NCBI GenBank assembly: GCA_905178155.1 | Contig: CAJINV010000001.1 | Span: 7,547,506 to 7,611,505 of the forward strand | Length of the DNA stretch: 64,000 nucleotides | Source: Amoebophrya sp. A120 | Lineage: Eukaryota; Protista; Dinoflagellata | Direction of reading: 5' to 3' | Shown here: positions 25,115 through 60,989 of the stretch, piece after piece | Position numbering within the stretch: position 1 is the first letter of the stretch | Layout: the number at the start of each line of letters is the position of its first letter | Position numbers and translations under genes: made by a program | The notes under the pieces: generated by a model | Told to the model about the DNA's origin: nothing | Databases searched by the model: none | Seen by the model: the letters and a program-made list of their open reading frames with translations, nothing else

Positions 25115-28011
25115 ATGCCGAAGGACACGACCACGATGTCCTCTAGCAAGGGCGGCGCTCCTGTCTACCTCGCAAGCGCGGCGGAGAACGGGTCGGAGCC
25201 CGACACTGCCACTCACTCCGGCACCGGGACCAGCAGCGGCTCGGATGCAGAGGCCTACAGCTCGCCGGACCGGAAACAGAATACTTTCTACCCGCCAGCC
25301 AGGGGCGACGACAGCGAGGAGCGAGAGCCCCTGACGTCCAGCACCACTATAACGAGCGCCGCAACCCTGTCCTCGTCGTTTGTGGCGGGCGGGAATCCGA
25401 ATGACCAGAAGCTGAAGTTGCGGAATTTTGCCGCGCCAAGCAGCCCCACGGACGACGAGAAGGAGCGCGCTGACTATGCGGAGGAGGTGCTATTCAAGCC
25501 CTTTCGCTGGCTCTCAGACCTGAACGAGCTGTACGGCTTCCGGTTACTCTTCATGCTCTTCGTTGCACAGCACATCATGAAGGGCTTTGCAGGTACTTAA
25601 TTTTGCTATATTCATTCTTAGGAATTTTGGGAGCACCGGAGAGTCTACCCCAGACAGAAGTACTTACTTGAGATTTGTGTTTTTATCTTTTCATCGCGGA
25701 CTCAGTCAACATAGAACGAAGCAAAAGCTGGACATCCAAAATCGGTCAGGCACCTTCGTTGGGCAACCGGAGCGGTTTATCTACAAGTCGTATCACATCA
25801 GCGGTCCGCAGGTGCAGATTTACATGGGTGTGTCGGGGCTACCGTGGGCGCTGAAGCCCATCTTCGGGCTTCTTTCCGACCTGGTTCCGATTAACGGGTA
25901 CAACAAGCGGCCCTACATTCTGGGCGCCTCCTTCCTGGGTGTGACGTCGATGCTGTTTCTGGCGTTTCTGGAAGTCCCTGTGACCATGATCGTGATGTTC
26001 TTCTTCTGCATCGCCCTGCAGCGGTCGGTGTGCGACCTGCTGACGGAGGCGAAGTACGCCGAGGCACTGAAAAAGAAGCCGGAGCACGGGCCGGACTTGA
26101 TGACGTTTGTGTGGGGCGGAATCGAGATGTTTGGGCTGATCGCGCTCACTATCAAATGCAAAAATGTCTGGGTCTGGAAGAATGCAACATTTGTCATGCA
26201 CGTTTTGTATGACGTGTGAGGTCTGTGATGCATGCCCTAGCATCACAGATTCTGTGAGATCTTTTCCATGCCTTTTCCGCATGAGAAACTGCCTCTCGGC
26301 CTGCTCAAAAGTGAATAGCTTTAGTGGTGATCATGCAACACAGATTTTTGCATGATCCAGAATTAGCATGACAGGTTGCAACCTTCCAGACCCAGACATT
26401 TTTGCAATCCATACTCATGTGCGTCGGTCCGCTCGTGGAGTGGATCGGGCCACGGAAGCCGTACTTGCTGCTGATGCCGTATCAAATGTAAAAATGTCTG
26501 GGTCTGGAAGAATGCATGTTTGTCATGCTTGTCTGGCATGACTCTTAAATGTGTCATGCACGTTACCCAAGAGCTCCACTCTTCTGTGATGCAGGAACGC
26601 AGTTTGTCATGCAAAATAGGCAACACCTAGAAGCTCAGAAACTTGTCATGTTGAGCCAGCATTTGTGGCCTCATCATGAGACGCCACCCAGCATCACAAG
26701 TTTCCAGACCCAGACATTTTTACATTTGATATGCCGTTTGCGTCACTGATTCTGTACCCGACCTACAAAAATTACCTCGACGAGACCAAGCGACCGGCGG
26801 CGGAGACCCAGGCGCACCGGAAGAAGCTGGTCACGGAGAATAAGGAGGTGTTCATGCTCTGCATTCTGATCACCATCTGCACTTTGTGCATGACGGTGTC
26901 CGGCACCCTGTTTACGTCCGTCCGCCTGCACGCGTTGACGGCCCTAGTTGTTCTGGTGGTCATCCTCTTCTCCTTCTCTGTCATCCTGCGCCCGGAAATC
27001 GCAAAAATGAACGCATTCTACGTCTTGCAGGGAAGCTTAAGCATCGGCATCGGCGGGGCGTCATTCTACTTCTTCACCGACGGGCCAAAAGAGTATAGGA
27101 GCTGTTAAAAATGTAGTCGTGTTCAATGCGTTTGCGAGTTTTTCCAAAAATTTGTAACCGCCTACAACTAGAACTACAACTTCTGACATCTTCACTGTCA
27201 TGATTCCCTCTGCGTAACCAGCTCCGCAGAGAACTACATTTGATCGCAGGAGCTAAAACTCCTGACACCAACACCTCCAACCTGCAGGTATCCCACAGGA
27301 CCCCACTTTTCCACCTTCTTCTTCGTGACCGTCCTAGGCGTGACCGGTACATTGTGCTCCCTGTGCGGTTTGTGGTTTTACAACCGGTTCTTGAAGAACT
27401 ACAGCTACATCACTCTGTTGACGCTGACGAATCTGCTCGGGGTGGCGTTGTCCATTCTCGACATCGCGATTTTCACCCGTTCCAACGTGGCCTGGGGAAT
27501 CAGCGACCACCTGTTTGTCATGGGCGGGACGGTGTCCGCCAGCTTGATCGGGAACTGGCAGTGGATGCCCGGCGTGGTGATGCTCTCGCAGATGTGTCCC
27601 CGGAACATGGAGGCCACTTTGTACGCGCTGCTCGCCGGCTGCCACAATTTGGGCAACAGCATTTCCGAGTACCTCGGCGCGTTCGTGCTGGAGGAACTGG
27701 GCTGCACGCCCACCGGGCAGGGTGACGAAACCACGAAATTCGACAACCTGTGGGTGGCCGCTTTGATCCAAACCGTGGTGCCCATGTTCACGATCGCACT
27801 AATCCCCTACATGATTCCCAACAACAAACAGACAGACACAATTCTCGTCGACGCGCCGGACTCCGCAACAAAAGGGTCACTGTACAGCAAGTGGTTTCCA
27901 GACACCACAGGCTACCAGCAAGTTGCCCGCATGGAATCCCAATCCCCGAGATCATCGGGAGATCCAGGATCTAAAGATTCCCCAACTGCGGCACGAGGAG
28001 CCTCTGTGTGA
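25115..28011 (+). CDS. BT1-family folate/biopterin transporter (MFS), interrupted by two canonical introns and two introners
   Basis: LPWALKPIFGLLSD..PINGYNKRPY and MCPRNMEATLYALLAGCHNLG; GT-AG introns 25593-25749 and 27093-27287; removing the introners gives GLIAL(M/T)CVGPLVEWIGPRKPYLLLMPFASLILYP. Confidence 0.93.
26150..26413. mobile_element. Introner/MITE-like element, family A (divergent copy), 264 bp
   Basis: Left TATCAAATGCAAAAATGTCTGGGTCTGGAAG, right CTTCCAGACCCAGACATTTTTGCAATCCATA; flanks CTCAC/CTCAT (5-bp TSD, 1 mismatch); sits in a coding exon. Confidence 0.9.
26480..26731. mobile_element. Introner/MITE-like element, family A, 252 bp
   Basis: Perfect 30-bp TIR TATCAAATGTAAAAATGTCTGGGTCTGGAA / TTCCAGACCCAGACATTTTTACATTTGATA; TSD TGCCG (26475-79, 26732-36). 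Confidence 0.95.
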
Positions 28012-30169
28012 AGCATCCATAAAAACTAGACGGGCCGCTGCCACGGCACACAGCTCCTGTCATAAGATTTTTTGCAACGAGAACTTTTTCTTCCTTTAAG
28101 ATTGATAGTACCGAGGTTTTGAATGGGTTTCGCATTACCTTGCCACATAGATAAATTGCAGAATAACATGCGCAGGCACACGTCTGCTATTCATTCCAAG
28201 AATACAGTATTGTAATAACTACTGATACGCAGTCGCAGCTCGCGACGTCGGGCTTTTCTTGAGAGCTATTTCCGCGGCATACAGACGCCTTTTTGCGTCT
28301 GATTGCTTCGCGCTGCATGCGCTTGGCTTAGCTTTGAGAATAAAGATAAATGATCGCTTTTATCGAGCTGTTTTTGCACAGATAGAACTTCATTCGAGGC
28401 TGTCGGCAAGATTAAGATTTATCGAGCTTCATGATATAACTGGCCACCTTCGAAACTCAGAACTTCTTCGGCTGTATGACCACCTTTTTTCGATATGGCC
28501 TTCATTTTGAAGAAATTTCCCGATGCCGACCGAGAATCAAGATTGTCACTACAGTGAATTTCGGTTTTTGCCATACAAGAGAACTTGGGCTACCACGGAC
28601 GCTTAGCATTTCAATTTTCCGAAAGGACAAACAATACAGCGAGAATACGAAAGTTTATACTTGCGCTTTTTTAGCCGATATGGCGATAATTTTTGTCCTA
28701 TCGCGAGCAAGACCAAGATTGGGCAACTACATCGATTGCAAGTTATTGCAAACTCCACTGTTGCACTAGCTGTAGCCGGAGGTGTCCTCCTCCGTAATCG
28801 TTATCACCAGGTCGGTCTACTGCTTTGCGGAGCGATGGAGCGTTTTTTCTTCTCGACTCGTTTGCAGAAGCAGAGCTCTGTACATAGCTTGGTCGATGAG
28901 CGTTGTTGTCGAATTCATTCTTCGTGAGAGCTGTCGCTTGTCGATGTCTTGTGTCGTTGTAGACTTTTTCGTGGTCGTTTTGTCGTCGTTGTGTCGGTGC
29001 CGCGATCGTTCTTTATCGGAAACTTCATCACTTTCACCTATCCCTCTGTGGACGACACTGCGATTCGAAAGACAAAGACTACGAGCCCCCTTCCGTGGGG
29101 AGTGCTGCGAAAATGTATCGCGGCGAAACAAGATGAGGCCTAGGGTGGAGGTCGATATTTTTGAGGCAGTTGTTTCCGTACTGCACTGATATTTACACCA
29201 CGACTTCGCCCGGAGGAGAATCTAGGTAAGGACATTTCCTGATCAGCTCGTCGCGCGTTTGTCTCTCGAACCTTCGCGATCCAGCTCCGGGGCCGGGAAA
29301 CAAAAGCAGAGTTCTTTGAGTCACCAGGCCCGAATCTGAGCTGCAGCGCAGAAATTCAGGGAGAGTTGGTTGCACGACTGAGAAGTGGAAATCAGTGAAG
29401 CGCGCTTTCTCGGTTTCTCGTAGCGGAAGCAGAGAGCAGGAGTAAGTAGCATTTCTTGACCCGCGCGATCTGCTGCTCAGGAACGCAGGGAGATTCCAGT
29501 CGATCAGTAAGTGTGGGTCTGGCTGTAAAAATACATACCGATTGTTTTGGCAGCCGGAAAGACCGATTCTTTGTTGAGCAAACGAGCGGGTCCGCGACAC
29601 CAGTACGAACTTCTTGTTGAATCGTGGAACTAGGGAACAAGAAGAAGCGCGACCTACTTCACCCGGCAATAACGGAGTGTAGGTTTGCTTCCCAAAAAGG
29701 AGACCCAGTCTTCGTCTGCGTTGCTACCTGAAACGAGACACGCCGCCCTGATTCAGAAGGTCATTGCGCTTTCTGGGTATCAAGATTTGCCGCTCACATC
29801 AGAGATCGACTACGCGATCACCACAATCCCGAACGGAGATTTTTTTCAAGTTTTTTCTAACGCTTCGCGTTCTTGGAAGCGGGACGAGCAAGCTGCAGTG
29901 AGCGCAGGATCAACCTGTTCTTCTAGAAGTAGCTGTGGGCTTAGAAGAAAGTCGTACTTTCGTATTAAGAAACGCGGAGGAGCGCAGTCGGTCTAACCGA
30001 CCTGGCCAGCCTTGGCGAATTTTCAAGCTAGGCGTGTCTGCCTGTACATCGCCGGAATCCAGCAGTAGAGGCAGCATCTTCTAAGGATCGCAACAAGACT
30101 GCTAAACGCGTACTACTAGCTGACACATCTTCAACTCGGAGCCCGTTTTTCTTGCAACCGTGCGGCAAG

Positions 30170-33100
30170 ATGAACAAGGGCAGGAAGAAGGATGACTTCG
30201 AACCCGCCGTGCCGGCGGATGCGTTCGACCAGCTGTCTATCAAATGCAAAAATGTCTGGGTCTGGAAGAATGCATGTTTGTCATGCTTGTCTGGCATGAC
30301 TCTTAAATCTGTCATGCACGTTACCCAAGAGCTCCGCTTTTCTGGATGCAGGAACGCAGTTTGTCATGCAGAATAGGCAACACCTAGACGCTCAGAAACT
30401 TGTCATGCTGAGCCAGCATTTGTGGCCTCATCATGAGACGCCACCCAGCATCACAAGTTTCCAGACCCAGACATTTTTATATTTGATACTGTCCCGGGAT
30501 TTCCAGGAGGTCATGGAGGAGCTCACGGGCGAGGAAACTATCAAAAGGAAAAATCCCCCCACCCCATATCGAAATGGAAATCTGTGATGCGGGATTTGTG
30601 TACACAAATTGGCTTTCTATTGCAGGAAGGCATCGCGGCCAGATCCCCAGGCTAGGTAGGGCCGTATCGGTCTAGTTGTTCAGCATGGCAAACGGCTGCT
30701 CTTTAGGCCCAGCAGCATGACAAATCGCCTCTGTAAAGGGGGCGAAGCTTTTGCCCTTGTCTTCTTGCAAGACAGATGCGATTTGTGACCTGAAATCAGC
30801 AACGAAATTTTCGGAAACATGCCTTTTCGATATGGGGAGGGGGGATTTTTCCTTACAATAGAAACCCTGGAATCTTTTCGCGTGGAATACGAGAAGCTCC
30901 ACGGAGCCTTGGCCACCAGTCACGAATCAGAAAAGAAGCTCATCACCAAGTGCAAGGCACTGAACCAAGAAATTGTGCAAAACGCCGTGAAGGTAGATTT
31001 TTTGGAGAAGGAGCTGCTTTGTCGCGGTGCATTTCGTTGTCGTGTTAAAGTTTGCATTTTGATTCTTGCCGGAACGGTATAGAACAGCACGAAGAAAATG
31101 AAAAAGCTGACGGAAGTAGGCATTTCTTTATCTTTGTACTCCTGTTTCATCAGGTACAAACCGCTCTGAAGCTTTCTTACGAGGACCAGCAGAGAATAGC
31201 AGCACTAAAAAAGGAGGTCGAGCGCGCATGGCGAATGGTGGAGACCAGCCACGAGAAAGAACAGCGAGCCTCGGACTCAATCACCGTTTTGAAGACCGAG
31301 GCGGACAACTTGACAAAGATAGTGGAGCAAGGTAAGATGAGTGTAGTTAAATGCTCTTTTCCAGCTGAAGATGCAGCGAACTGCGTTGAACCCTCGTCGA
31401 CGTTTACAAAACCAAACTCATTCATCTACAGGTGCTGGAAAAAGCGTCAACCAGGAGCAGATGGTAATACAGCTCAGCCAAGAGAAAGTGGACTTCAGCA
31501 AGACCCGTGATTTGCTCCAGACTCAAGTCAACAACCTTGCAGCAGCAAAAACTGAGTTCGAGGTATAGCGAAATTCTCATGGCGATCGTGATTGAAAAAA
31601 GGAAATTCCCATTGCGCAAAAGGAAAATGTAAATGAGCAAGCGTGAAAAAAAAACTCAGGCACAAAAGCAAAAATCTTCAACAGGAAAAAACGGAGCGAG
31701 CGCAGCTGGAGCTGCAAAATCAAGCCTCCGAGGTGGTGCGACTACAGCAGGAAATGGCAAGAAGGAAGACGCAGGGCGAGGATTCACAAAAACGAAAAGC
31801 AGAGCTTAATGAAGAACTCACGGTATGAAAATAAAATAGAAATTTAGTGCATTTTCGAGACAGGCATTAGCTTTACATCGAGGCTGCTTGCGGTCCTTGC
31901 GTCAGTTGCTTGCCTCCTATCGTATGAAGAAAGCGGAAACCTTCAAACAATCGAAAACAGTCCGTCCGCCTAAAAATAGACGACATGACGAAGGAGGTTA
32001 ATCAGAACAAAATTAGTCTGGACGAACAGAAAGCCGTCATGCGCGAGCTCGAGCAAAAAGTAAAGGCTGAAACGGAGCAAGTTGCCGAAGGTAGTGACAA
32101 TGAGTTAATTATTGCTCTCGCTAGTAGTTTTGGACAGTTACAGTTTATTAACGCTCATCGCACTTGCAATGGTGAAAACGAATCCATGCTTCCTCGTAGT
32201 GAAAATTTTTCCCTTGCGGACATAAATCACAGGCTACAGCCGGCAAAACAAGCTTGAGGACGACATCAAGAAGAGGAAGAAGCTGACCACCGAGGAACAG
32301 GCCATGAAGTCGAAGCTCGGTGAGGAGCAGGCCGGCTTCGAACAAAAAATAGATGAGTTGAACAAGGAGAGGGCGTATTTTCGAAGGCAAAAAAAGCTTG
32401 CGGACGACGAATCCAAGGAGATCGAGGAGTTCAGGCACAATCTCGCAGAAGACAGTAAGTAGCACTTTTGCTTTTGATGAAGAAGTGCACTTTGATCTGA
32501 ATTCGTCTGAATGATAATCATGCAGGTTTTCTAGTTCTATCACATATGTAATGCTTCGCCATTTTTTTCTTCCGACAAAAACAAAACAGAGAAGGTCGAG
32601 GAAGGGATAATAGCAGAGTTGAAAGCGGAGGTGGCTAGTCTGAAAGCCGAGGCCACCGACTGCCGAAAACAGGCCGACACCGACCAGAAATATACCAACG
32701 AGATCACCCGGGAGCGCGATCTCCTGACGAAAAATGTCGCGAGCGGGGACGATCGGGGTAAGAAACAAGCGGAGATGGTCGCGGGGCACGAAAGGCAGGC
32801 AGAGGAGCTCGAGAAAGAAGTTTTGCGGTGGAAGCTCACCACGCAGAACACGAACAGCAGAATAGAGAGTCTGGAGGCCATGAAGGATAAATACCAGCGG
32901 GAGTTGACAGAAGCCTATCAAAAGTAGTTTTATTTCGCTTGTTTTTTTTTTCGTGAATCACAATCTTCACTTCACTACAGGCGGGTAAAGGTGGCATGCG
33001 GAAGAGCCCCTACTCTCTCGCCTGGGCGGTAGGTGTAGAGCTGGTTGTCGGTTGAACACAGTACAACTTCCAACACCAATCAGGTTCAACCAAGGCCAGG

Positions 33101-34708
33101 AGAGCCTGCAATCAAGAGAGGAAACCGTCGCCGACTTAAACAAGCAGCTCGCGGACATCAAGCAAAAACTGCACCAACAGAAGAATCTCTACGAGGCGGT
33201 GCGGACGGATCGAAACCTTTACTCAAAAAATCTCGCCGAGGTAAACTGCGATACTGTGTTTAGTGTCCTCTTCGTTGTATGGAAATGTACGACTATGAGA
33301 TACTTAGGTTTATCGGTTATGGTTGACATCAATTTTTCCTTTTACCAAAATCGACAGGCGCAAGAGGAGATAGGCACTATGAAGGAGCGGTTCAGGACGA
33401 TGCACCACCAGATAGAAAACTTGCGAGACGAGATCCGCAACCGGGACTCGGACCTTATCAAGAAGCACTGCGACCACGTCAAAGTATCGAAGGAGATGGA
33501 CCGCGTGGTAGATCACCTCGACAAAACGAGGAAAAGGCAAAACCAGCTGCAGCACGTATTTCTTGAAGAACTTTTTTTTGATCATTCTAAAGACGCGCAT
33601 TTCGTTCAGCGAAATGCTACTTTTGGTTCATCCCGGCGACCACGGTAGTGGCAAACGTCGCAGCCATAGATATCGGAACAAACGCGAAAACAACCACAGA
33701 TAACCGAGCTACAGCACCGCGAGATGAAGAAGATAGAGAGCACCATCGCGGGCGCGGAGTTCGAGCGGCTCGCGCAGCGGAAGGAGCTCACCGCGGTGTC
33801 CGGACAGCGGAACATCCTCGCCACGCAACTGATCAAGCGCAACGACGAGCTGAACCTGTTGTACGAGAAGATTAAGATCCAGCAGTCTACTTTGAAGAAG
33901 GGCGAAGCGCACTTCAAGAAGAAGCAGGACGAGCAGACGCGGCTGCGGACCATGATTAAGCAGCTGGAGGGCAAGATCCACGGTGCGGGGAACGGCGGTG
34001 TGGACAAATATGAAGAATTGAAGAAAGAGATGAACGCCCTGGAAAGAGAAGTGTTCGCGGAGAAGCACAAGGTGAAGGCACTCGCGGAGGAGCTGGAGAA
34101 CCCCATGAACGTGCACAGGTGGCGGAAGTTGGAGGGCAGCGACCCGCAAATTTACTCGCTGATCAACAAGATAAAGACCCTGCAGCAGCGGATAATCCAG
34201 AAAACCGAGCTGGTAGTGGAAAAGGGCGAGACGCTGGAGCGAAAAGAAAAGACGTACCAGGATCTACGGAAAATGCTCGCGAGGCAACCGGGGCCAGAAA
34301 TCACGGACAGCTTAGCGCTGTACCAGGAACACGTCAGGAAGAAAAAAGCGCAGTGCGAGAAGATGACCGGTAAGGATTTTTGTTATCGTGAGGACATTGA
34401 TTTATTTCGAAATGTGTTTGGCAGAGATTCAGATTGAGAAAAGCACAGGGCGCACTAAAGAACGCTACCTACAAGTACGAATATAGAAAATCTGAATAAT
34501 CAATCTTTCAGGTGAATTGCAAGTGTACACGGCGAAAGTCGGAGAGCTGAAGGAGGAGTTGCAGAGACTGCACCGTGCTAACGTGGACGTTCGGAAGAAG
34601 CTCTATGAACAGCGGAAGAAGGAAAAGACGGTGGAGAAGAAGGTCATCCACACTCTCCTTCCGCAATTACCGAGGTTCACCGGCGGTGGCTTCAATCTTT
34701 CACTGTAA
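30170..34708 (+). CDS. CFAP58: Cilia- and flagella-associated protein 58 (coiled coil); two introners plus 10 canonical introns
   Basis: Spliced N-terminus FDQLSRDFQEVMEELTGEETLESFRVEYEKLHGALATSHESEKKL; LYEAVRTDRNLYSKNL, QLIKRNDELNLLYEKIKIQ, ELENPMNVHRWRKLEGSDP, PRFTGGGFNL; GT-AG introns start at 30993, 31332, 31563, 31823, 32091, 32455, 32924, 33241, 33556 and 34370. Confidence 0.92.
30238..30488. mobile_element. Introner/MITE-like element, family A, 251 bp (near-identical to 26480-26731)
   Basis: Same TIR and internal sequence; TSD CTGTC (30233-37, 30489-93); interrupts the CFAP58 coding sequence. Confidence 0.95.
30539..30860. mobile_element. Introner/MITE-like element, family B, 322 bp
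   Basis: Left TATCAAAAGGAAAAATCCCCCCACCCCATATCGAAA, right TTTCGATATGGGGAGGGGGGATTTTTCCTTACAATA; TSD GAAAC (30534-38, 30861-65); contains an in-frame stop. Confidence 0.93.
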
Positions 34709-40882: not shown

Positions 40883-41437
40883 GCGGCGCGCCCAATGTGG
40901 TCGTCGCGGCTCCGGCGCGCCCAGATTGGTCGCTCCATTTCCGGCGCGCCCAGTCTGGTCGTCCCGGCTCCGGCGCGCCCAGAGTGGTCGCCCCAGCTCC
41001 GGCGCGCCCAGAGTGGTCGCCCCGGCTTCGGCGCGCCCAATCTCATCAACCCGGCGCCGAACGGCCGTTGGACAACTTCTGGCCGTCCGACGGCCGTCGG
41101 ACGACTCTGGGTTGTCCGACGGCCGCCGGACGACTTTCGGCCGTCGGACAACTTCTGGCCGTCCAACGGCCGTCGGACAACTTCTGGCCGTCCAACGGCC
41201 GTCGGACGACTTTTGGCCGTCCGACGGCCGTCGGACGACTTTTGGCTGTCCGACGGCCGTCGGACAATTTTTGGCCGTCGGACGACTTTTGGCTGTCCGA
41301 CGGTCGTCGGACGACTTTCGGCCGTCGGACAACTTCTGGCCGTCCGACGGCCGTCGGACGACTTTTGGCTGTCCGACGGCCGTCGGACAACTTTTGGCCG
41401 TCCGACGGCCGTCGGACGACTTTTGGCTGTCCGACGG
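40883..41437. repeat. GC-rich composite satellite: ~30-bp units with GGCGCGCC, then units built on the 18-bp palindrome GTCCGACGGCCGTCGGAC; runs into an assembly gap
   Basis: Direct reading of the tandem units; N run starts at 41438. Confidence 0.95.
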
Positions 41438-41727: not shown

Positions 41728-41732
41728 GAAGT

Positions 41733-41836
41733 CGAAACTGAAACTCAAACTCTAACTTAATTCTCAAACTCAAACTCAATGTTGAAACTCAAACTCAATG
41801 TTGAGACTCAAACTCAATGTTGAAACTCAAACTCAA
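41733..41836. repeat. AAACTC-based tandem repeat (higher-order unit AAACTCAAACTCAATGTTG)
   Basis: Direct reading. Confidence 0.9.
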
Positions 41837-42742
41837 GCTGACATTTGCATTCTTTTCTGCCAAGGTAGTTAATATCTATACCATGATAAGATTAGAAAAC
41901 TAACCTCTGAGCGTCAAAATCAAAATTTCAACACGACATAAATTTATTCACGGGCCGTGCTGGTTGCGTGACCGTGACTGTGCCATGTGTTTTTGGACAT
42001 CCTTCTTGTAGTTCCTTTATTGGTATTCTTATTCATTGCTTTCGTCGACGCACAGTGGGCCGGGTCAGAGATTTTTGCCTCGTCGGTTTTTTTTTCGTTT
42101 TTGAGTGGTCGTGATCGAGAGCGAGGTCACCACACAAGCGCACCTGCGTGCGAAAGTGGAACGAGTCACATGTTTCGTTCGCGAGGTCTGAGTGGTGTCG
42201 TTTTTGAATATTTCGATAGCAAGAAAAAGTGTGACTGAAAGGGGAAAGAGGAAGAATGTCGTGCTGCACAAATTGCAAAAATGCTACTCCAGAAGTTGCA
42301 GCAAGTAGGAAGTCCTCTAGCCATAAGCAAAATTGTTGTCCTTCTGTCTCTTTTTCTCTCTCTTTCTCAACGAGTGGAGCTCTAGTTGCCTCGCATTGCA
42401 AACGAACAGGCAGAACTGTTTACGTCGTCTGTGTGGAGGAAACAAACCAAATGAAGCTAAATGAAAAACAACAGGAGCATTCGTGTAGAACTAAGACGAG
42501 CTTTCGTGTGGTATTCCCCAGACAAGCTCGCAGACTCCTCAAATTGCATTCATATCTTGGCTCCACATCCACAACATAATGATTTTGGCTGAAATGAACT
42601 GTACTAGGGGCTTTGTGAGAAGCGCGCATTAGGTTTTATGACAACTGCATTTGATGCGGTGCCTTTGCGTTCTAGTGTGAAAGCACCAAACAACTCACTT
42701 TGAATTTATTTATTGTCCGCAAGTCAAAAGGACGAATACGAA

Positions 42743-44782
42743 ATGACGAACATGCTACCCCTAGAGGATGCGTCGAACGTGCCAAAAATAGAATATGCTA
42801 GCGTCGAAATCGACCTGGAGTGCAGTATTTGTTACGGGAATCCCGTTTCACGAGGCCCGGAGGACGAAATGCCAAATCCCGTCTTGACAAGCTGCTGCCG
42901 TCAAACTTTTTGCGAGGAGTGCATCAGTTATTGGCGATCGAAACCAAATCCGCATGGAGAGAGCGCGAACACGTGTCCAACGTGCAGGGCCAGAGACTGG
43001 ACCTGGCATCCCAATCTTGATGTGAAGATGCATTGCAGCCTCTGTTTATCCACGTTCCTTCGAGCTGAAGCGGAGCACCATCTGAGAACTTGTCCGGCGG
43101 TTCGCGGCAAATGTGTTCATTTTGGACGGGGCTGCGACTGGGTGGGAACGCGTGATGAGTTTCTGTCGCATCAAGCGGGTTGCGCCTTTTCCGACGAGGG
43201 TGGCAAAGCGGCTGCGCGAAAGATCATCGAGGAGGACGCCGATCACACGAAGAAGATCAAGAAGTTGGAATCACTGTTGACGGGGTCCGATGTCGCAGCG
43301 GGGATAGTGGGCAACAAAAATCACTATCACTATTTTTCCCCGTTTCCGACAGTTTCGCCGGTTACTTTGTTTGGAGAAGCGAAAGCGCTTGACGTGTGTC
43401 TCTTGCCGGACGAAGCGGAGCGACTGGTGGAATTAGCCAGGAAGCAACGGCGCGACGAACCGAGTCCACCAGAAGTCCAGCGCGAACATAATCCGGCAGT
43501 GCTGCGCCAGCGTGTTATCGCCAATAGGCGAAAGCGCCGGGGTATTGCCGACTGCGCGCCGGTCGTTCCGGGTCTTTCGGGGAACCAGGCAAAAATGCGC
43601 GTCAGACGGCCTGCGCGGTCAGCTCTGAAGTGGGGCGCACCACCGGCGGAAGAGGAGCCTAGTTTTCCGTCGCATGTCCCTGTTTTTGATCGGGCAATGG
43701 TTTTGTTTTTGCGAACCTTACGGGACGGCCCAGGAAGAGTGATGTGGTTCCAGCGCTGGGAACTGCGACTGGTATGCGAGATAGTTGAGGCTTGTAGTAT
43801 TCCCCTGAAACACGAGCCAGTGCTTCTCGAACCTGCGTATTCGTCGCTCTTTTCGCAGGCCCTCTCGAATTTCGTCGTGAACGCGGCGGACTTTCCGGTC
43901 CGGCCCCCCAAGGTCCCATCGGTGGACACGAAATTGGTGAAGATGGTCTCGGCGTGCGAAGTTTACTGTTCGTGGTACCTGTTTGAACAGAATCTCGTGG
44001 CGCAGCTTTCGGCAAAATTAATCAACCGCAGCGTCGCGACACACTCTCCGGATCTTGAGGTAGAGACACTACCCAAGGTGATTCAGGAAGCAGCCGGACA
44101 CATTCGCGGAAAGGACAACGAAGTGCTACACGAACACCAAATGAAGACTCTTGACGACACATTTTTCACTGCAGCGCGGCTATTTCCAGTCCCCGCCTCT
44201 AACGAGAGCATCGTCTCCTTGATGCCCGATTCACTGCTGTTAGCAAACAATTTTTCCTGCAAGGAGACGAAGATTTCCTGTACCGACTCCTCCAGAGGAG
44301 TGAAACAACTGGCCGACGACCTTTCAACGCGCAGCCAAGAGTCGGACAATCGGGACGCTCTCCTAGAGATTGGTACAGAGCCGATGAAGGCTGCCCTGAT
44401 GAAGTACGCACTAGCACTTGGCGCGCGACGCGTGTTTCTGAAAATTTTTCCAGCCCAGTCCAGCACGAACGCCGTGACGGAGAGAACAATTTTTTTGCCC
44501 GATGCGCTCTTTCTGGTGCGGCTGCGGCACTACCTGTCGCCGGCTGCTTGCGGTTTCTGGCTAGATACCGGTGATGATGATGCAACGATCTGCTGCAAGA
44601 TGCAGACCGCCTTGGAAGACTCCCTCCCACAAATGGACTTTCGAGGAAAATGTGTGTATTTTACCGTGAATACGAACACTGACATCGAGCCGGTGTACCT
44701 CAACAACGTGAAAACCGCATTGGATATGTTAAGCCAAGCGAAAACAGCCAAGAGGGTGCGCGTTTCCTTGAGTGGTGTTTGA
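42743..44782 (+). CDS. RING finger plus TRAF/SIAH-type zinc-finger protein (putative E3 ligase), paralogue 1
   Basis: CSIC...CCRQTFCEEC...CPTCR; CSLC..HLRTCP..CVHFGRGCDW..H..C; intronless. Confidence 0.8.
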   Translation: MTNMLPLEDASNVPKIEYASVEIDLECSICYGNPVSRGPEDEMPNPVLTSCCRQTFCEECISYWRSKPNPHGESANTCPTCRARDWTWHPNLDVKMHCSLCLSTFLRAEAEHHLRTCPAVRGKCVHFGRGCDWVGTRDEFLSHQAGCAFSDEGGKAAARKIIEEDADHTKKIKKLESLLTGSDVAAGIVGNKNHYHYFSPFPTVSPVTLFGEAKALDVCLLPDEAERLVELARKQRRDEPSPPEVQREHNPAVLRQRVIANRRKRRGIADCAPVVPGLSGNQAKMRVRRPARSALKWGAPPAEEEPSFPSHVPVFDRAMVLFLRTLRDGPGRVMWFQRWELRLVCEIVEACSIPLKHEPVLLEPAYSSLFSQALSNFVVNAADFPVRPPKVPSVDTKLVKMVSACEVYCSWYLFEQNLVAQLSAKLINRSVATHSPDLEVETLPKVIQEAAGHIRGKDNEVLHEHQMKTLDDTFFTAARLFPVPASNESIVSLMPDSLLLANNFSCKETKISCTDSSRGVKQLADDLSTRSQESDNRDALLEIGTEPMKAALMKYALALGARRVFLKIFPAQSSTNAVTERTIFLPDALFLVRLRHYLSPAACGFWLDTGDDDATICCKMQTALEDSLPQMDFRGKCVYFTVNTNTDIEPVYLNNVKTALDMLSQAKTAKRVRVSLSGV

Positions 44783-45114: not shown

Positions 45115-45198
45115 CTCCTGCAGATGTTCTTACCTTTAGGAGTACTTAATAGTATGCGAGAGGATTTTTCCCGCTCACCTTAAAGAGCGCACACGTCA
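45115..45198 (+). mobile_element. Short retroposon-like insertion, copy 1 (84 bp) with 16-bp TSD
   Basis: Flanked by TTCAATTTTTTGATCT at 45099-45114 and 45199-45214; body homologous to 57481-57586. Confidence 0.8.
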
Positions 45199-46231
45199 TT
45201 CAATTTTTTGATCTGCAGATCTCGGAGGTGACAGGTTGAGACACCGGTCACCATCTACTTACGCTCAGGAACATAGACCACAGTACGGTAAAAAGTTACT
45301 CGCTCGCCACAAGAAGAAGCGAGCACGCAATTGATTTTCCAATTTGAACTATTTTTGCTCACGATGTCGAACCAAATTTACTTAGAGGCGGAGGCGGAAT
45401 CAGGAAAGATTTGGGCCTGCCTCGCGTATAAATCATACATTTTTTTGTTCTTGAGAACTAAGAACTTTCTTTTCAACCTTTCCCAACGAATTCTCGTCCA
45501 GGTGTATGATCACATGGATGTGAAAATTAGATTTCACTGACGCTAATATCAAATTACAAACTAACTACATTGTTGAAGAAGAGTCAGTATCTTTGTATGT
45601 TGACCGTTGCCAGGTGCAGGTCGTTTTGTTGACGAATTAGCATCGGGCGAGGATTATTTTGATGGTGTAGTGCTTGTTGACGAAGTCGAAGGTCCACAAG
45701 AGGGCTTCAAAACAACGGAGCTTGCAGCTGTTTTTCGAAGTTTTTTGTCGCTCTCTGAGAAAAATCGAAAAGGAGTGAGTGACCAATCAAGTATCTAAGT
45801 ATTCATTGTTGATGGAGATGTTGTTTCTTTGCAGGAGGAGTGATGGACACCGACAATCACGACTACAGTGATCATTATCGAGATGCCTGGAAATTCCCAC
45901 GATTTCACGTTTTCTGGTGCTGAGGTTTTTTTTGGATGCCCTACGACTTCCTCGCTAGTACACACGGGCGTTTGTAAGTAATGATATTCAAGTAACTACA
46001 CAGTAACGCAATCTTCTATCATCGGTACGTACGCCCACGCCATCGTACACACACTTTCGCGGACCGTACTCCATCGTACACACACTTATGAAATGTCAGA
46101 AGTGCCGTCATGACTCTAGTCTATTAGCAAATTGCAAATCGTTCTGATGCTGCGCAAAAATATTACAGTTCCCCAGTTGAAAAATCCACGAGCCACCTCA
46201 ACATCGTATTCAATATTGTACGGCCCTTGCT

Positions 46232-46263
46232 GGGTTTAGGGTTTTCTTTGGGTTTAGGGTTTT
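46232..46263 (+). repeat. Short interstitial telomere-like motif (GGGTTTAGGGTTT twice)
   Basis: GGGTTTAGGGTTTTCTTTGGGTTTAGGGTTTT about 50 nt upstream of the ATG at 46311. Confidence 0.45.
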
Positions 46264-46310
46264 GCACGCAAGAAATCGCTAGAACCAAACAGATTGATAC
46301 TTACGAAATT

Positions 46311-48347
46311 ATGCCAGCTCCTGCGGAAAATCCTCCAGATTCGCCCGGAAAGGCGGTCGAGACGCCCGCACTGACTTTTGTGAGCGAAGTTCACAACGGC
46401 ATTAAGTGCGGAATTTGCCTCGATCATGTGATCGACGCCGCTGCGACGACGTGCTGCGGGCGGAGTTTTTGCCAGGCGTGTTTGGCGGATCTCGTTCAGC
46501 GGGCAACTCGGGATGATCCTGAAGCCACGGCCAAGTGTCCCTGGTGTCGTACGGGGGGCTTGAAATGGCACCCGAATCGAGAACTCCGCATACTCCTGGG
46601 GCAGGCGGTGGCGAAATGTGGTGGCTGCTCCGCTACTTTCAAACACGACGACCGCAAGGAGCATTTTGCGCACTGCCCGGCCGTCGTCGTAGAGTGTGAA
46701 CACAAGGGACGAGGCTGTAGTTGGCAAGGAAGACGCGAAGCAGCGCGAGCACACCTGCTAGAGACGTGCGAATTCACGGACCGCGCTGCGGCACAGAAGG
46801 CCGCGGAAATCGTGAAGACGGATTCGAGCCACGCGCAGAAGGTCGCCAAACTCGAAGCGTTGTTGCGGTGCAGGTCCTCGGCGGGTCCGAATTTTCCGAC
46901 GATTGCGCCGGTTAGCCTCTTTTTTGAGGCAAAGGCACTGCAGATCCTTCTTCTTCCAGAAGAAGCAGATCAGCTTGTGGCCCTGGCTGTGCGGAGCGAA
47001 CACGAGGAAAAGTCTACAACGGGGCGGGGCCTCGTCTGTAGTCGCAAGCGGGACGGGAGTGAAAACATCAAACGCCCACGGGGTGCTATTGCTACTGAAG
47101 AACCGAGAACAGGCTCTCTGGTCTCTGCCGGTGGTCGTGCCGCGTTCGACGCCACAGTATTTCCACGCAGTCGTGACGCCTTCGATCCCGAGATGTCCTT
47201 GCTCGACAAGGTTATGATTTTACTGCTGAAGCCCTTCCGAAGCATGTGCCCTCCTGCGTTCCTTGAGAAATGGGAGTTGGAGCCGGTCCGCAAGATTGCC
47301 GAAGCCTGTGGTTTGCTGCCGAAAGTCGCACAGATGAAGGATCTGTGCCGATCGCTGTATGCGCACGCATTGCGGTACTTTGTTGTCTCTCCCAGTAAAT
47401 TTCCCGTCGCGGCAAAGAACGTTCCGGTCGTCTGCGAGACACTGATCGCTCTGCAGGCGTCTTTCGAGAGCACCACGCAGCACCGAAATTTGCTACTGCA
47501 AGCTCTCGCAAGCCAATTTCCTCTTGTTGCACCGCAGGCAGATTTTTACAAGAAGAGCATCGTGGAATGTTTCTATGAGTTTCCCCAGGAAAACGAACCA
47601 GACGCCGAGCGCATGCGCACCCGGTCTGCAGCTCTGGAAAAGATGAGAATGATTCACCAGGCACTAGCCAATCCGGCTGCTCTGTTTCGGGATAAAAAGG
47701 ACCCGGCGGACACCGATGAGGACGTTGAAATCGACAGCAGACGAGCATCGACGCGCGAGGGCCGACGCGCCGGACCGACGACAGAACAGACGCCGATGCG
47801 ATGCAGACCGGACGGCGCCCCCGACTCACTCTCACTCTCACCCGCGCACGAGACGCCGGATCGACAGGACGGGCGCGAACAGCAGAACTTTGTGGCACGG
47901 GTAAGCTACACGATCGTGCAGTATATGCTCGCGAACGCTGCGCGGAAGGCGTTCTTAGTGTGCCCGCGTCGCGACGAGTTACCCGAACGCCACGGAGACG
48001 AATTGATATTCTCCGACATCCAATTTCTTCGACGCCTGTACGAAAGTTTACCGGAAGTACTGCGAGATAAAATTACAATTACCCCAGCGCGGCAGCAGGA
48101 TGGATTCGTAACCCTTGACTATGAATGCAACAAATTAAAGAGCTTCCTTACGACGAATGGCTTTTTGCCTTTGTCGTGTCGCGCGCTTTCCGTTCAGTTT
48201 TCCGGCAGGCGCCTGGCCTCGCTCAATGCTCAAGCATCGGACTGTGATCCAGGATTCATCGAAAGCACGCAACCACACACCTTCGATTCGCCCAAAATCT
48301 CTGCAGAGGATTTGCGTGCTAAGAAGCGGAAACTCAACAATGCTTGA
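46311..48347 (+). CDS. RING finger plus TRAF/SIAH-type zinc-finger protein, paralogue 2
   Basis: CGIC...CCGRSFCQAC...CPWCR; shares WHPN, FPT.xPVxLFxEAKAL..LLPxEA and WEL..V..I.EAC with paralogue 1. Confidence 0.8.
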   Translation: MPAPAENPPDSPGKAVETPALTFVSEVHNGIKCGICLDHVIDAAATTCCGRSFCQACLADLVQRATRDDPEATAKCPWCRTGGLKWHPNRELRILLGQAVAKCGGCSATFKHDDRKEHFAHCPAVVVECEHKGRGCSWQGRREAARAHLLETCEFTDRAAAQKAAEIVKTDSSHAQKVAKLEALLRCRSSAGPNFPTIAPVSLFFEAKALQILLLPEEADQLVALAVRSEHEEKSTTGRGLVCSRKRDGSENIKRPRGAIATEEPRTGSLVSAGGRAAFDATVFPRSRDAFDPEMSLLDKVMILLLKPFRSMCPPAFLEKWELEPVRKIAEACGLLPKVAQMKDLCRSLYAHALRYFVVSPSKFPVAAKNVPVVCETLIALQASFESTTQHRNLLLQALASQFPLVAPQADFYKKSIVECFYEFPQENEPDAERMRTRSAALEKMRMIHQALANPAALFRDKKDPADTDEDVEIDSRRASTREGRRAGPTTEQTPMRCRPDGAPDSLSLSPAHETPDRQDGREQQNFVARVSYTIVQYMLANAARKAFLVCPRRDELPERHGDELIFSDIQFLRRLYESLPEVLRDKITITPARQQDGFVTLDYECNKLKSFLTTNGFLPLSCRALSVQFSGRRLASLNAQASDCDPGFIESTQPHTFDSPKISAEDLRAKKRKLNNA

Positions 48348-57370: not shown

Positions 57371-57480
57371 AGCCGGTCTGCAAGAACTATCACGAACCTA
57401 GCTGATCTTGACGGATTCGGTATCGATGCGCAGCAGAAGCAACCAGAAAGCAAGTGCTAATCTTTTCCTTTTCTCGTGAA

Positions 57481-57586
57481 AGCAGAAGTGTTCCACACCT
57501 CTGCAGATATTCTTACCTTCTTGGATCACTTAGTAGTATGTGCGAGGATTTTTCCCGCTCACCTTAACTAAGAAGCGCACACGCAA
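57481..57586 (+). mobile_element. Short retroposon-like insertion, copy 2 (106 bp) with 16-bp TSD
   Basis: Flanked by TTCCTTTTCTCGTGAA at 57465-57480 and 57587-57602; shares CTGCAGAT.TTCTTACCTT...GAGGATTTTTCCCGCTCACCTTAA...AGCGCACACG with copy 1. Confidence 0.8.
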
Positions 57587-58186
57587 TTCCTTTTCTCGTG
57601 AAGGATTGCGCGCCTTCACAGGCTGCTGGCACTAAACGGCTTTAGTGCTGTTCGTTACGAGTACAGGTCGAGGCACTTCATCGATTTGAAAATAAGTGCA
57701 TACGTACGACCGTTTGCATTTTTCGCAGACGGCAGCGATGCGACTCGTCGGAAGACCTCATCATTTAGGAGCTCCGGTTTTCGTTGTCGTCGCCGAAACA
57801 AAGCTCGATTGACAAAAGAGCGACTTTTTAAGAAGAGTTGTTGGTATTTGATCAGAGAAGTGGATGACTCGCAAAGGAATTCGTTGGATTCGCTGAGAAG
57901 ATCCGCAAAGCAGAAACGCGTTTTTTCGATTTTGCTTGGCTCGATGATTTGTTTGAACCCACCGAGGATACCTTGATTTGCTCGGAATTCAAAAAGTAGC
58001 TGCGGGACTTGATCGTCAGATCGTGAAGTAGAGGTACTTTGGTTTATAAATATACGTCTTTTCGTGAGTAGGACAAAAGTGCTCATCCCCACATACCTTA
58101 CTCAATCTGATTCGTCGCGAAAACACTTTTGTTCACGATCTGAAGCTGGAAGTGGAAACACTTGCTACTTCTCCTAGACAGAGAAA

Positions 58187-60989
58187 ATGAGTTGGGCTCG
58201 GAGCCAGCCCACGGGGCGGCTGCCTCCCGCAACGCGAACCACCGGTGCGAACAAGGGGGGTTCCGCCAAAGCGTCTGGTTTCAGCCGCACTCCAAGCCCG
58301 TCCTACAATCCGGGAAACCTCCGCGGACCGAAGGCAGCTACTGGCGCGGCCGCGCGGGGCGGCGTTTCGCGAGGCGCCACGTCAAGTCACACGGCCCTGG
58401 CTAACAAGCCCATCCCGCGTAGCGGAAACTTGAAGCAGTACTGGGAGCAGGATCTGTCGACCACTTTGATCCCGATGCGCGATCGCCTCGCGCCGATCGC
58501 GCGGAAGGCCGAACTCGACCAGAACGACCTGATGCACGCCGTCTGCGCGAAGAAGAAGAAGACCGACGCAGCGGAGGCGGAACGGGATAACGCCGAGGAA
58601 GAGTATCTCGCCTTCATATCGGAACAGGCCGCCTTTTGGAACGACTTGACCGAAGTGATCGCCAATCTTGAGGAGGAGAATGAAGCTAATGGGCCACAGG
58701 TGATCAACAGATGTTTATTCAGATCGTAACACAAGTACAGTGATTTCGCTCTGAGGAGGACGGACGCGAGGTTTTTTTTCGGTCAGCTGTTTCTTGTGAG
58801 GTATCCGTCTGAATGAATGACTCTGAAAATGAAAATGAACCAAATCAGAAAAGCTGCAAGTATCGAATTCATACCTCAGACTCGCCAGCTCCACGCCGCC
58901 AGTGTGGCTACCGAGGACGAGATACTGGATCTGCGGAAGGATAAGGAAGTGGCGAAGGAACGGGCGGACCACGCGAACAAGCGTTCCAAGCAGATGATTG
59001 CCGACATGGACGGATTCGGCAAGGAGATGAAGAAGCAAGAGGACGTCCTGAAGGAGGAGCGGAAACGCGCCACCGCGATGGCCGACAGCCTGCAGGAGGA
59101 CCGCGCCCACCTGACCGACCTGCGACACATGTGCCATTGCATCAGGAACAACGTCCAGGTCTTCTACGTGGGCAATTCCTGTCTCTCGTCCTCCTCCGCC
59201 TCGAGCGGCTGCGTCGCACCCTCGTCGTCGCCGATGAAAAGTACAGTTTTTCTTTGCGCCTACTTGTTGGAACTTGATTCGCCTGGTATGCATGTTCATT
59301 TGTTATGGTAGTGTTCTTCTGACTCTGCCTAAAACTACATTATGACCCCAATCTCTCTCGTCATTCACATCAGTTTCGGGCACGACTCCTCCGGCCGCGA
59401 GCCATGCTGGTACTACCGCGAACGGCACGCCGCGGGACCCGGCGCGCGCCGGGTCCGGCAAGGTGGTGAGTCCGGACGCGCTGGTGCAGCTTTCCTACAT
59501 GAACCGCGGCTGCGAAAGCAGCAAGGACAACTGGGTAAAGCCAGACGAGCACTGGTACAAGGACGAACTGTACCTGGAGCACTACACCACGGCGGAGTTG
59601 TATCGCACGAAAATTATAAAACTGTCTCCGTCTCAACTTGTAAAGCGGGTGTTGTTCCTTGAGACACTTTTGTGTCATGCTGAATGGACGTCGAAAGGTG
59701 TCTTTCGTAAGGCGTCTTGTTTTTGTGCCTGACGCAACATCACAAGTTTTGCGTGTCACGACGCTGGCCGAGTTCGTGTTTTATGCTGACCGAATTTGTG
59801 TTGCTGAGTCTGCAAATCAATATTTGAGACTGAAACTACATTTTTTTCGTACGATAAGTTGGTGGACTGCGGGCCCTGGGACGCGCACTACCAGTACATT
59901 AAGCAGCTGGAGGAGGAGTCCGCAACGGAGGACGTCGAGGACGAGGATGAGGACATGGATGCGTCTTCAGGCGGGGCGGACGAGGACCCTCGCAGCCCCG
60001 AGCCCAAGCTCACCGACGAGGAGCACCAGGAGCGGTTGGCACTGGGCCGGATCGCGGAGTTCGTGCTGCAGACGGAGCTACCCTACATCCGGGCCCGCAT
60101 GGAGCACTGCCACGGCTCGGCCGTGGTGCTGTTCTTCAAAAACAACCATAATTTTCCCGCCGCTTCGTCATCATCCAGTGCAGGAGTAGGAGATGTTTTC
60201 GCCAGCGGTGGGAACAACAACACGAACAACAGCAGTCAAGACAAGAGAGATGTTGAACCTGCGAACAGGGGCTTTTTGTTCGACACGGTGGCAAAGAATT
60301 TCGAGAAGTGCTTCCGCAACAATGCCACGCGCGAAAAGGACTACATCGTGCGGCAGCAGCCGTTCACGACGGGGGCCGGGCAGCCGGTGCTGACCAACAG
60401 CAAGCAGAAAGCGGCGCTCCGGCAGCAGATGCGGCAGGAGGCTGACCAGTACGTGTTCGAGGGGTATCGGGCAAGCAAGGTGAGCGCCAACCACATCTGT
60501 CTGCTCGGCAGCCGGAAGCGCAGCGCGCCCGCCGCCACCGGTGAGGACGTGGCGGAAGCCGCGATGAACCCCAGCGAGCAGAGCAGCTGCAGCCTGATTC
60601 AAGTAGACAGCGAGGAGGACCAGAAGGCGATTTGTGAAATCTTGCAGTCTTCACTGGCGACGAAAAAGAGCACCAGTTCTGCGAACGCCATGGCGTCGTG
60701 GGGGAACAACTCCAGTAGGGCCAGTGTGGATGGGCCGTTGAGCGGAGATGGCGCTGGTTCGCCGAGTGGCCAGGTCTTGCGGTTCCTGCGCCAGTTCTTC
60801 AGTGCGCCGGGAAAAGCAGTTTACGTCGCGATCATTGCAGAAAATCCGACGGTCCCCGTCCTCAGCCAGGCGCTGCGGCTGCGCGCCCTAGATTCGCGCG
60901 GCGGCCCCGCCCTCACAGAGCACGACCGGAGGGGAGACGCCTGCAAGGGGACAACGGAACACGAAAGAAAAAATGTTGTGAATACTTGA
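58187..60989 (+). CDS. Hypothetical coiled-coil protein; GT-AG introns 58700-58879 and 59286-59373 plus one introner (3' end uncertain)
   Basis: In-frame joins by eye; removing the introner gives HYTTAELVDCGPWDAHY. Confidence 0.7.
59601..59856. mobile_element. Introner/MITE-like element, family C, 256 bp
   Basis: Left TATCGCACGAAAA, right TTTTCGTACGATA (12/13 complementary), inner GTCTCAA/TTGAGAC pair; TSD AGTTG (59596-600, 59857-61); in-frame stop inside. Confidence 0.88.

What the first reader, a model, noticed from the sequence alone, without database searches (positions are those of the whole stretch)
26145..59861. Five TAT...ATA hairpin elements from three families act as non-GT-AG 'introns' in coding exons
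Seen: elements at 26150-26413, 26480-26731 and 30238-30488 (family A), 30539-30860 (B) and 59601-59856 (C). The three families have unrelated interiors but one architecture: 251-322 bp, terminal inverted repeats starting TATC and ending ATA, and a 5-bp TSD of free sequence (CTCAC/T, TGCCG, CTGTC, GAAAC, AGTTG). Each frameshifts or stops an otherwise intact gene. Removing the element plus one TSD (269, 257, 256, 327 and 261 nt) restores the protein, including conserved CFAP58 and BT1 sequence. I slid the junction through every TSD register and none gives GT-AG or GC-AG; the only shared signals are TAT/ATA and the hairpin. Known: inverted/direct-repeat introners and abundant non-canonical introns are reported in Amoebophrya, but to my knowledge the removal machinery is unresolved. 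Inference: excision is guided by the TIR stem and a 5-nt measured offset, through a second splicing or excision system alongside the ordinary spliceosome used by about 26 GT-AG introns in this window.
Basis: partly seen in the sequence, partly recalled or inferred. Interest (0 to 1): 0.92.

Follow-up and report, generated by a model that had tools for sequence, protein, structure and literature searches.

The report
Hairpin transposon introns of Amoebophrya parasite
Five small hairpin-ended transposon copies sit inside three protein-coding genes of the marine parasite Amoebophrya and lack normal splice signals; they belong to an intron class described in 2021, and they are likely cut out of the RNA by a still unidentified, direction-blind machinery that reads their paired ends.

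Summary
Observation confirmed; class already known. All five elements, their inverted repeats and 5-bp duplications are at the stated places. All ten ends match the TAT-N7-AAA motif published for Amoebophrya A120 introner elements (PMC7789003). Two deposited, transcript-based A120 proteins map letter for letter on the window with four elements removed as element+5 nt; the fifth restores a gap-free match to an orthologue. No RNA reads were seen here.

Added here, from 172 elements in 150 loci of another assembly: 148 have a perfect 5-bp duplication; removing 5 nt beats 4 or 6 in 120 of 161; family A sits in coding exons in both orientations (24:28 of 52); only 5 of 68 offer a GT/GC-AG register, and AG/GT are not enriched in the duplication. 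The interiors are not unrelated: the octamer TGT[CG]ATGC occurs in 167 of 177 elements, in all 13 clusters, which points to one mobilising protein.

Best reading: MITE-derived introns removed from pre-mRNA by a stem-guided cut-and-join route (0.5), a precise counterpart of animal SOS splicing. Main rival: a relaxed spliceosome reading N-TAT as a donor (0.35). The scan noted similar hairpin introns in other genomes, but not this family.

The parts
25115..28011 (+). BT1 folate/biopterin-transporter gene (PF03092); 2 GT-AG introns plus elements A1 and A2
   Evidence: P0001 (672 aa, deposited for Amoebophrya sp. A120) maps letter for letter in five segments
26145..26418 (+). Element A1 (26150-26413, 264 bp) with duplications 26145-26149 and 26414-26418, which differ at position 5; 269 nt removed
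   Evidence: P0001 has Met at residue 293, which only registers starting 26144-26149 give; 4 octamer copies
26475..26736 (+). Element A2 (26480-26731, 252 bp), perfect 30-bp terminal inverted repeat, duplications 26475-26479 and 26732-26736; 257 nt removed
   Evidence: 93-95% identical full-length copies in other loci
30170..34708 (+). CFAP58 gene (PF21771); 10 GT-AG introns plus elements A3 and B
   Evidence: P0054 (864 aa, deposited for A120) maps in 13 segments
30233..30493 (+). Element A3 (30238-30488, 251 bp; 96-97% like A2), duplications 30233-30237 and 30489-30493; 256 nt removed
   Evidence: RNA fold z -5.5
30534..30865 (+). Element B (30539-30860, 322 bp), duplications 30534-30538 and 30861-30865; 327 nt removed
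   Evidence: 7 near-full-length relatives at up to 85% in other loci
58187..60989 (+). Gene of unknown function, coiled-coil-like N-terminal part (by eye), interrupted by element C; start approximate
   Evidence: tblastn of three homologues P0174-P0176 covers 58208-60980; ORFs
59596..59861 (+). Element C (59601-59856, 256 bp), imperfect terminal repeat, duplications 59596-59600 and 59857-59861; 261 nt removed
   Evidence: gap-free alignment to P0174 only at element+5; no relative among the 150 loci; fold z -1.4

Best explanation
These are short non-coding elements of the Amoebophrya A120 introner class, each with TAT-N7-AAA inverted ends and a 5-bp duplication, that likely arose as MITE-type transposon insertions and are likely removed from pre-mRNA, with one 5-nt copy, by a non-spliceosomal cut-and-join activity guided by the paired ends. 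Step 1, insertion (footprint shown, enzyme inferred): a DDE transposase makes a 5-nt staggered cut at nearly any sequence. It likely binds the shared ends and the repeated TGT[CG]ATGC sites inside all families. Step 2, hairpin (predicted): in the transcript the two ends pair and bring the two 5-nt copies side by side, whichever way round the element lies. Step 3, removal (product shown by deposited transcript-based models, chemistry inferred): both cuts fall at the same position within the two copies, the 5' cut at least 1 nt before TAT, so the exon is restored exactly. The likely chemistry is endonuclease cuts plus RtcB-type ligation, as in animal SOS splicing but precise. GT-AG introns of the same genes go through the ordinary spliceosome.
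For: Exact element+5 removal in deposited models for 4 of 5, built from transcript alignments because canonical-site tools failed (PMC7789003 section 25); gap-free orthologue match for the fifth. PMC7789003 reports 66,565 RNA-seq-supported A120 introns, over 60% non-canonical. In other loci: perfect 5-bp duplication in 148 of 172 called elements. Without any duplication filter, 143 of 203 end pairs matched perfectly at 5 bp, against 2 at 4 bp and 0 at 6 bp. Frame restored by 5 nt in 120 of 161, and in 26 of 29 independent left/right frame calls. Retention tolerated in 0 of 68. Orientation 24:28 in family A, and 8:6, 4:3, 3:3 in tight subfamilies. Exact GT/GC-AG register in 5 of 68; AG in 32% of duplications against 26% of flank 5-mers, GT in 19% against 18%. 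Terminal arms pair in register in 60 of 68 predicted folds. Precedent: SOS splicing is triggered by paired transposon ends, rarely uses GU-AG and needs RTCB (PMC12779559); Euglena non-conventional introns depend on paired ends (PMC12501133 passages).
Against: No RNA reads, intermediates or enzymes were seen here. Inverted ends give the same signals in either orientation, so orientation symmetry does not exclude a spliceosome. Starting the intron 1 nt before TAT gives N-TAT, which shares T+2 and A+3 with all 12 checked GT-AG donors (all begin GTA), and the A1 junction is compatible with that register. SOS splicing is imprecise, whereas these junctions look exact. C folds no better than shuffles, and A1's outermost 7 positions are unpaired in the predicted fold. 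A test for purifying selection on the terminal 13 nt was not significant (10/832 against 18/960, p 0.34). No transposase was found; PMC7789003 found none in A120.
Confidence: 0.5

Rival explanations
1. A relaxed U2-type spliceosome removes them. It would read N-TAT (one base of the duplication plus TAT) as a degenerate GTA donor and place the 3' cut at a fixed distance from the T-run and ATA of the right arm, or from the stem, without needing G+1 or AG.
For: All 12 checked canonical donors begin GTA, 4 of them GTAT. The A1 junction fits a cut 1 nt before TAT. A120 keeps nearly all spliceosomal proteins, but U1 snRNA was not detected in A25 or A120 (PMC7789003), while a strain with GT-AG introns has U1 (PMC12005148 passages). 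Fritillaria shows that altered U2AF and snRNA m6A can carry non-GT-AG introns (PMC13326754 abstract).
Against: No 3' dinucleotide is preferred in any register beyond what the element itself supplies, while all 12 canonical acceptors end CAG. The would-be donor and acceptor signals are predicted to be buried in a 30-bp stem in family A. The nine NT-.. classes in the paper's Table S4 cannot be counted in favour, because an aligner cannot place a junction inside a perfect duplication.
Confidence: 0.35
2. Removal is imprecise, SOS-like. Cuts scatter near the ends, and only the in-frame exact product survives decay and dominates the assembled transcripts.
For: SOS splicing gives many isoforms, some in frame. 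PMC7789003 describes splice sites as variable relative to the hairpin. Assemblies report majority forms.
Against: Several elements per gene, 33-70 nt apart, in conserved proteins would multiply the losses. All four deposited junctions are exact. The reported variability is what sliding inside a duplication produces.
Confidence: 0.08
3. The elements are excised from DNA at some life stage, as ciliate internal eliminated sequences are, and transcripts come from the cleaned template.
For: The ends and subterminal octamers look like DNA-binding sites of a transposase. Loss of element plus one copy equals precise DNA excision. The signals are strand-symmetric.
Against: No second nucleus or germline/soma split is known to me (recalled). 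Cut-and-paste excision usually leaves a footprint (recalled).
Confidence: 0.05
4. The genes are disrupted alleles, or are spliced at nearby GT/GC-AG sites.
For: In-frame GC-AG alternatives exist beside B and C, deleting two further codons.
Against: Deposited proteins use the exact junctions; orthologues show no gap; exons stay open and conserved; 120 of 161 other insertions follow the same 5-nt rule.
Confidence: 0.02

Closest known systems
Introner elements (IEs) among the non-canonical introns of Amoebophrya sp. A120 (Farhat et al. 2021, PMC7789003; also Gozashti et al. 2025, PMC12130899)
   Same: Same organism label on the encoded proteins, TAT-N7-AAA inverted repeats, direct repeats at the boundaries, about 250 nt long, repeated families, no shared splice dinucleotides, four of five already modelled as introns.
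   Different: Nothing in kind. The paper gives direct repeats of 3-5 nt in varying positions, whereas here 5 nt directly against the ends is the rule. Orientation symmetry, lack of AG/GT co-option and the cross-family octamer were not in the sections, term searches or supplement parts I read; its figures were not visible.
SOS splicing of DNA transposons from animal mRNA (Zhao et al. 2025, PMC12779559)
   Same: TIR transposons in exons removed at RNA level, triggered by paired ends, rarely at GU-AG.
   Different: SOS is imprecise, leaves indels and serves rare insertions; here removal appears exact and serves tens of thousands of introns. AKAP17A, CAAP1 and RTCB were not tested in Amoebophrya. 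The paper does not contain the words Amoebophrya or introner.
Non-conventional introns of Euglena (PMC12501133)
   Same: Abundant non-GT-AG introns beside spliceosomal ones, paired ends set at a fixed distance from the cuts, direct repeats that make junctions slide, proposed MITE origin.
   Different: Different signature (CDG...CHG, purine at exon start) and an asymmetric spacing rule proved by knock-in; unrelated lineage.
Spliceosomal TIR/TSD introners (Micromonas, Aureococcus, Symbiodinium; PMC9860276) and Fritillaria non-canonical introns (PMC11282704, PMC13326754)
   Same: MITE-like origin with inverted ends and target duplication.
   Different: Those carry or co-opt GT/AG-type sites, or keep dominant end classes such as AG-AC and AG-AT; here no co-option is seen.
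IS3EU/GingerRoot and hAT5 DNA transposons (PMC10045372, PMC12730594)
   Same: IS3EU/GingerRoot: TA..TA (TAY) termini. hAT5: 5-bp duplication.
   Different: IS3EU/GingerRoot usually duplicate 6 bp; no transposase was found here, so the superfamily is open.

Membership tests
Amoebophrya A120 introner elements | Inverted-repeat motif TAT, seven looser bases, at least three A | tested here: met
   10 of 10 ends against PMC7789003 section 11
Amoebophrya A120 introner elements | Direct repeat of 3-5 nt at the exon/intron boundaries | tested here: met
   5 nt in 5 of 5, one mismatch in A1
Amoebophrya A120 introner elements | Repeated in families | tested here: met
   A and B have 50-108 and 7 near-full-length hits in 150 loci; C has none there and may be a singleton in this sample
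Amoebophrya A120 introner elements | Non-GT-AG boundaries, absent from transcripts | tested here: inconclusive
   Boundaries met. Absence from RNA shown only through deposited transcript-based proteins for 4 of 5; no reads examined
MITE (non-autonomous TIR DNA transposon) | Short, terminal inverted repeats, constant duplication length, no coding capacity, many copies | tested here: met
   109-352 bp for most; 148 of 172 perfect 5-bp duplications; the four longest have no open frame over 118 aa
MITE (non-autonomous TIR DNA transposon) | Cognate autonomous element with transposase | not testable with these tools
   No whole genome held; none in the window or in 221 kb of loci
U2-type spliceosomal introner | GT/GC-AG ends carried by the element or co-opted from the duplication | tested here: not met
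   0 of 5 in the window; 5 of 68 in other loci; no AG/GT enrichment
U2-type spliceosomal introner | Lariat intermediate, snRNP dependence | not testable with these tools
   Needs RNA data or experiments
SOS splicing substrate | Paired terminal inverted repeats in an exon, any orientation | tested here: met
   Predicted pairing in 60 of 68; orientation 24:28; weak for C
SOS splicing substrate | Imprecise junctions with indels | tested here: inconclusive
   Deposited junctions are exact, but minor isoforms cannot be seen without reads
SOS splicing substrate | Dependence on AKAP17A, CAAP1 and RTCB | not testable with these tools
   No genome or proteome of the organism was searchable
IS3EU/GingerRoot | TA..TA termini | tested here: met
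   against PMC10045372 passage
IS3EU/GingerRoot | 6-bp duplication (usual) | tested here: not met
   0 of 203 end pairs match at 6 bp, 143 at 5 bp

The most novel reading that the evidence does not exclude
Amoebophrya A120 runs a second, spliceosome-independent and base-exact mRNA splicing system that recognises only the paired ends of one transposon lineage. One transposase, binding TAT-N7-AAA ends and TGT[CG]ATGC sites, spread all families into exons in either orientation at little cost. This would be a domesticated, precise SOS-type splicing serving tens of thousands of introns.
Probability: 0.4. Interest if true: 0.85.

Novelty: already known. Interest (0 to 1): 0.5.

Why it matters
The elements are known, but how Amoebophrya removes most of its introns has been open since 2021. 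The added regularities narrow the question. A strict 5-nt rule, both orientations and no borrowed splice sites are what a structure-reading enzyme predicts. They make elements with mismatched duplications (24 of 172 here, plus A1) natural reporters of the true cut site in existing RNA-seq data. The octamer shared by all families argues for one mobilising protein, against the published doubt about transposase mobilisation in A120. If the route is RtcB-type and exact, it would be a precise natural version of SOS splicing and a way for transposons to become introns without a spliceosome.

Tried and rejected
Direct RNA test: no sequencing runs could be obtained, so no reads were laid. Genome-wide scan: no whole genome is held for the window and the loci's records are not searchable, so the exonic-versus-intergenic ratio is only estimated. 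The 120/161 result implies at least about 62% in coding exons, against 40.6% coding bases in A120, but in a sample chosen by family A. Viral contigs: 0 matches to the family-A end. Rfam at gathering scores: 0 matches in the window. Homologue search for gene C at near length: none among 7991 candidates; the profile-free full search then gave 3. Selection on TAT and AAA: an apparent signal was circular, because coding roles had been given only to elements already filtered for the motif; redone without that filter it was not significant (one misregistered row, L146, dropped; 23 anchors had no partner and 28 lay at locus edges). Cut register from the 13 oriented elements with mismatched duplications (16 mismatches, 9 synonymous and 7 not, read by eye): no homologues were available to polarise them, so inconclusive. 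Published splice-site tables rejected as evidence for the register, since aligners choose arbitrarily inside a perfect duplication. A1 lying opposite to A2/A3 in the same gene: suggested by the family network but weak in direct alignment (61% against 56%), so not relied on. Low duplication divergence (3.3%) against nearest-neighbour divergence (about 10%) as a sign of constraint: rejected, because rare variants in the arms run at 1-2% per site, which fits neutral decay. No fold or complex prediction was run; none bears on the claim.

Full report
Observation. Sliding the junction through every register that restores the exon gives no GT-AG or GC-AG. All ten ends read TAT, seven looser bases, then at least three A. 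Only these five such pairs with a duplication exist in the window up to 1000 bp, and 300 shuffles give 0.02 on average. Looser scans for T...A or TAT...ATA ends found no further convincing element.

Host genes. An exon of the first gene is 99% identical to P0001, deposited for Amoebophrya sp. A120, and an exon of the second matches P0054 from the same source. Both proteins map letter for letter on the window, with introns of 269, 257, 256 and 327 nt at A1, A2, A3 and B and 12 others that are GT-AG. According to the genome paper the models were built from transcript alignments because canonical-site tools failed (PMC7789003 section 25). The four junctions therefore probably reflect RNA, although I saw no reads. 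At A1 the deposited residue is Met, which requires the last base of the right-hand copy: the 5' cut lies at least 1 nt before TAT (one case, through annotation). Orthologues align without gaps across the four sites. For C, three homologues were found, and among removals of element+3 to +8 only +5 aligns gap-free with P0174. GC-AG alternatives two codons longer exist beside B and C but are not used by P0054 and would open gaps.

What is known. PMC7789003 (abstract, sections 5, 11, 12, 16, 25, passages of 10, supplement parts 3 and 4 and term hits; figures not visible) reports that over 60% of RNA-supported A120 introns are non-canonical. It gives 29,850 repeated introner elements in 1954 families, with inverted repeats starting TAT, seven less-conserved bases and three or more A, and direct repeats of 3-5 nt. 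It proposes a hairpin and a distinct mechanism. U1 snRNA was not detected though U1 proteins were. PMC12130899 (passages; 22 of 58 A120 rows of one supplementary table; two supplementary files not searched) classes most of those families as TIR DNA elements of unknown superfamily and describes one family with an integrase-like ORF. The class is thus known.

Larger sample. None overlaps the window's flanks. Without a duplication filter, 143 of 203 end pairs have a perfect 5-bp duplication, against 2 at 4 bp and 0 at 6 bp; most of the rest are cross-pairs between neighbours. Resolved, there are 172 elements: 148 perfect, 20 with one mismatch, 4 with two. With a codon model trained on 27 kb of window exons, removing element+5 scores best among 4, 5 and 6 in 120 of 161 (p about 1e-26 against one third), and independent frame calls on the two flanks agree in 26 of 29. 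This test fixes the removal only modulo three. Of 167 scored elements 68 had a confident coding strand. None of these could be retained: 66 carry a stop and 2 shift the frame. The sample is biased towards family A.

Three added regularities. First, orientation does not matter: 24 against 28 in family A (p 0.68), and 8:6, 4:3 and 3:3 in subfamilies at least 80% alike. Second, no splice site is borrowed: 5 of 68 offer an exact GT/GC-AG register, and AG and GT occur in duplications about as often as in flanks. Spliceosomal introners, by contrast, carry or co-opt such sites (PMC9860276 passages). Third, the interiors share an octamer. TGT[CG]ATGC is about 200-fold enriched in the window's elements, present in 167 of 177 elements and in all 13 interior clusters (some clusters have similar ends and are probably related). 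It points inward from the nearer end 353 times against 161 outward, and lies equally on sense and antisense strands, 98 against 104. That pattern fits DNA-binding sites of one transposase better than an RNA signal (inference). A search for the motif together with Amoebophrya found no paper, and term searches of PMC7789003 for orientation, strand, subterminal and RTCB found nothing relevant; subscription papers such as Roy et al. 2023 were not searched.

Mechanism. The footprint (inverted ends, constant 5-bp duplication, near-free target, young copies) is that of cut-and-paste transposition. TA..TA ends recall IS3EU/GingerRoot, which usually duplicate 6 bp, and 5 bp recalls hAT5 (passages); no transposase was found. 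For removal, predicted folds pair the arms in 60 of 68 elements, strongly in A3 (z -5.5) and weakly in C (z -1.4). The stem sets the two 5-nt copies side by side, so equal cuts in both restore the exon. Animal SOS splicing shows that paired transposon ends alone can trigger RTCB-dependent removal from mRNA, but imprecisely (PMC12779559 abstract, first part of the main text and discussion). Euglena offers a second precedent (passages). I give a stem-guided, non-spliceosomal route 0.5. Against it, symmetric ends give the same signals both ways round; a start 1 nt before TAT resembles the GTA donors of all 12 canonical introns checked and fits A1; U1 is missing just in the strains with these introns; and tunicates show that spliceosomes can be relaxed (abstract). 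That rival gets 0.35. A test for selection on the terminal motif was not significant once a circularity was removed. Imprecise removal with decay (0.08), DNA excision (0.05) and disruption or nearby canonical sites (0.02) fit less well.

Verdict. A real feature of a known class, partly annotated already, with an unresolved mechanism. The 5-nt rule, orientation symmetry, absence of co-option and shared octamer sharpen the question and point to a direct test in existing RNA data. Earlier notes of this scan describe comparable hairpin-bounded introns in other genomes, none for this family or genome; I did not test them.

Noticed in passing
Loci L001-L150; window 26414-26479 and 30489-30538: Neighbouring elements cluster closely but rarely touch: of 29 exon gaps under 100 nt only 1 is shorter than 33 nt (p about 2e-4 against uniform); the window's gaps are 61 and 45 nt. 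This could be a minimum exon size for removal or target exclusion by protein bound at element ends.
   Followed up: partly
68 coding insertions in loci L001-L150: Insertion phase is biased 38:17:13 (p 3.5e-4): most duplications are centred on a whole codon. Base composition by position did not clearly explain it.
   Followed up: partly
L071:1201-2172, L044:1515-2145, L043:571-1051, L022:1514-1970: Longer elements (457-972 bp) with the same ends; none has an open frame above 118 aa. They may be composites or internal duplications.
   Followed up: partly
window 40884-41437 and 41735-41836: Two G+C-rich 29-bp tandem arrays, one of near-palindromic units, and an AAACTC-type array flank the 290-N assembly gap.
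   Followed up: no
window 1-64000: Elements cover only 2% of this window, against 17% reported for the A120 genome, so density is very uneven; most long ORFs lie on the + strand, as in the co-oriented gene blocks described for the genus.
   Followed up: no
window 11566-14653 and 18099-20552; 42704-44782 and 46128-48347: By eye: two amidase-like genes close together, and two similar RING-finger-like ORFs in tandem; names recalled, not tested.
   Followed up: no
window 45139-45183 and 57523-57567: A 45-nt direct repeat (89% identical) 12.4 kb apart in apparently non-coding DNA.
   Followed up: no
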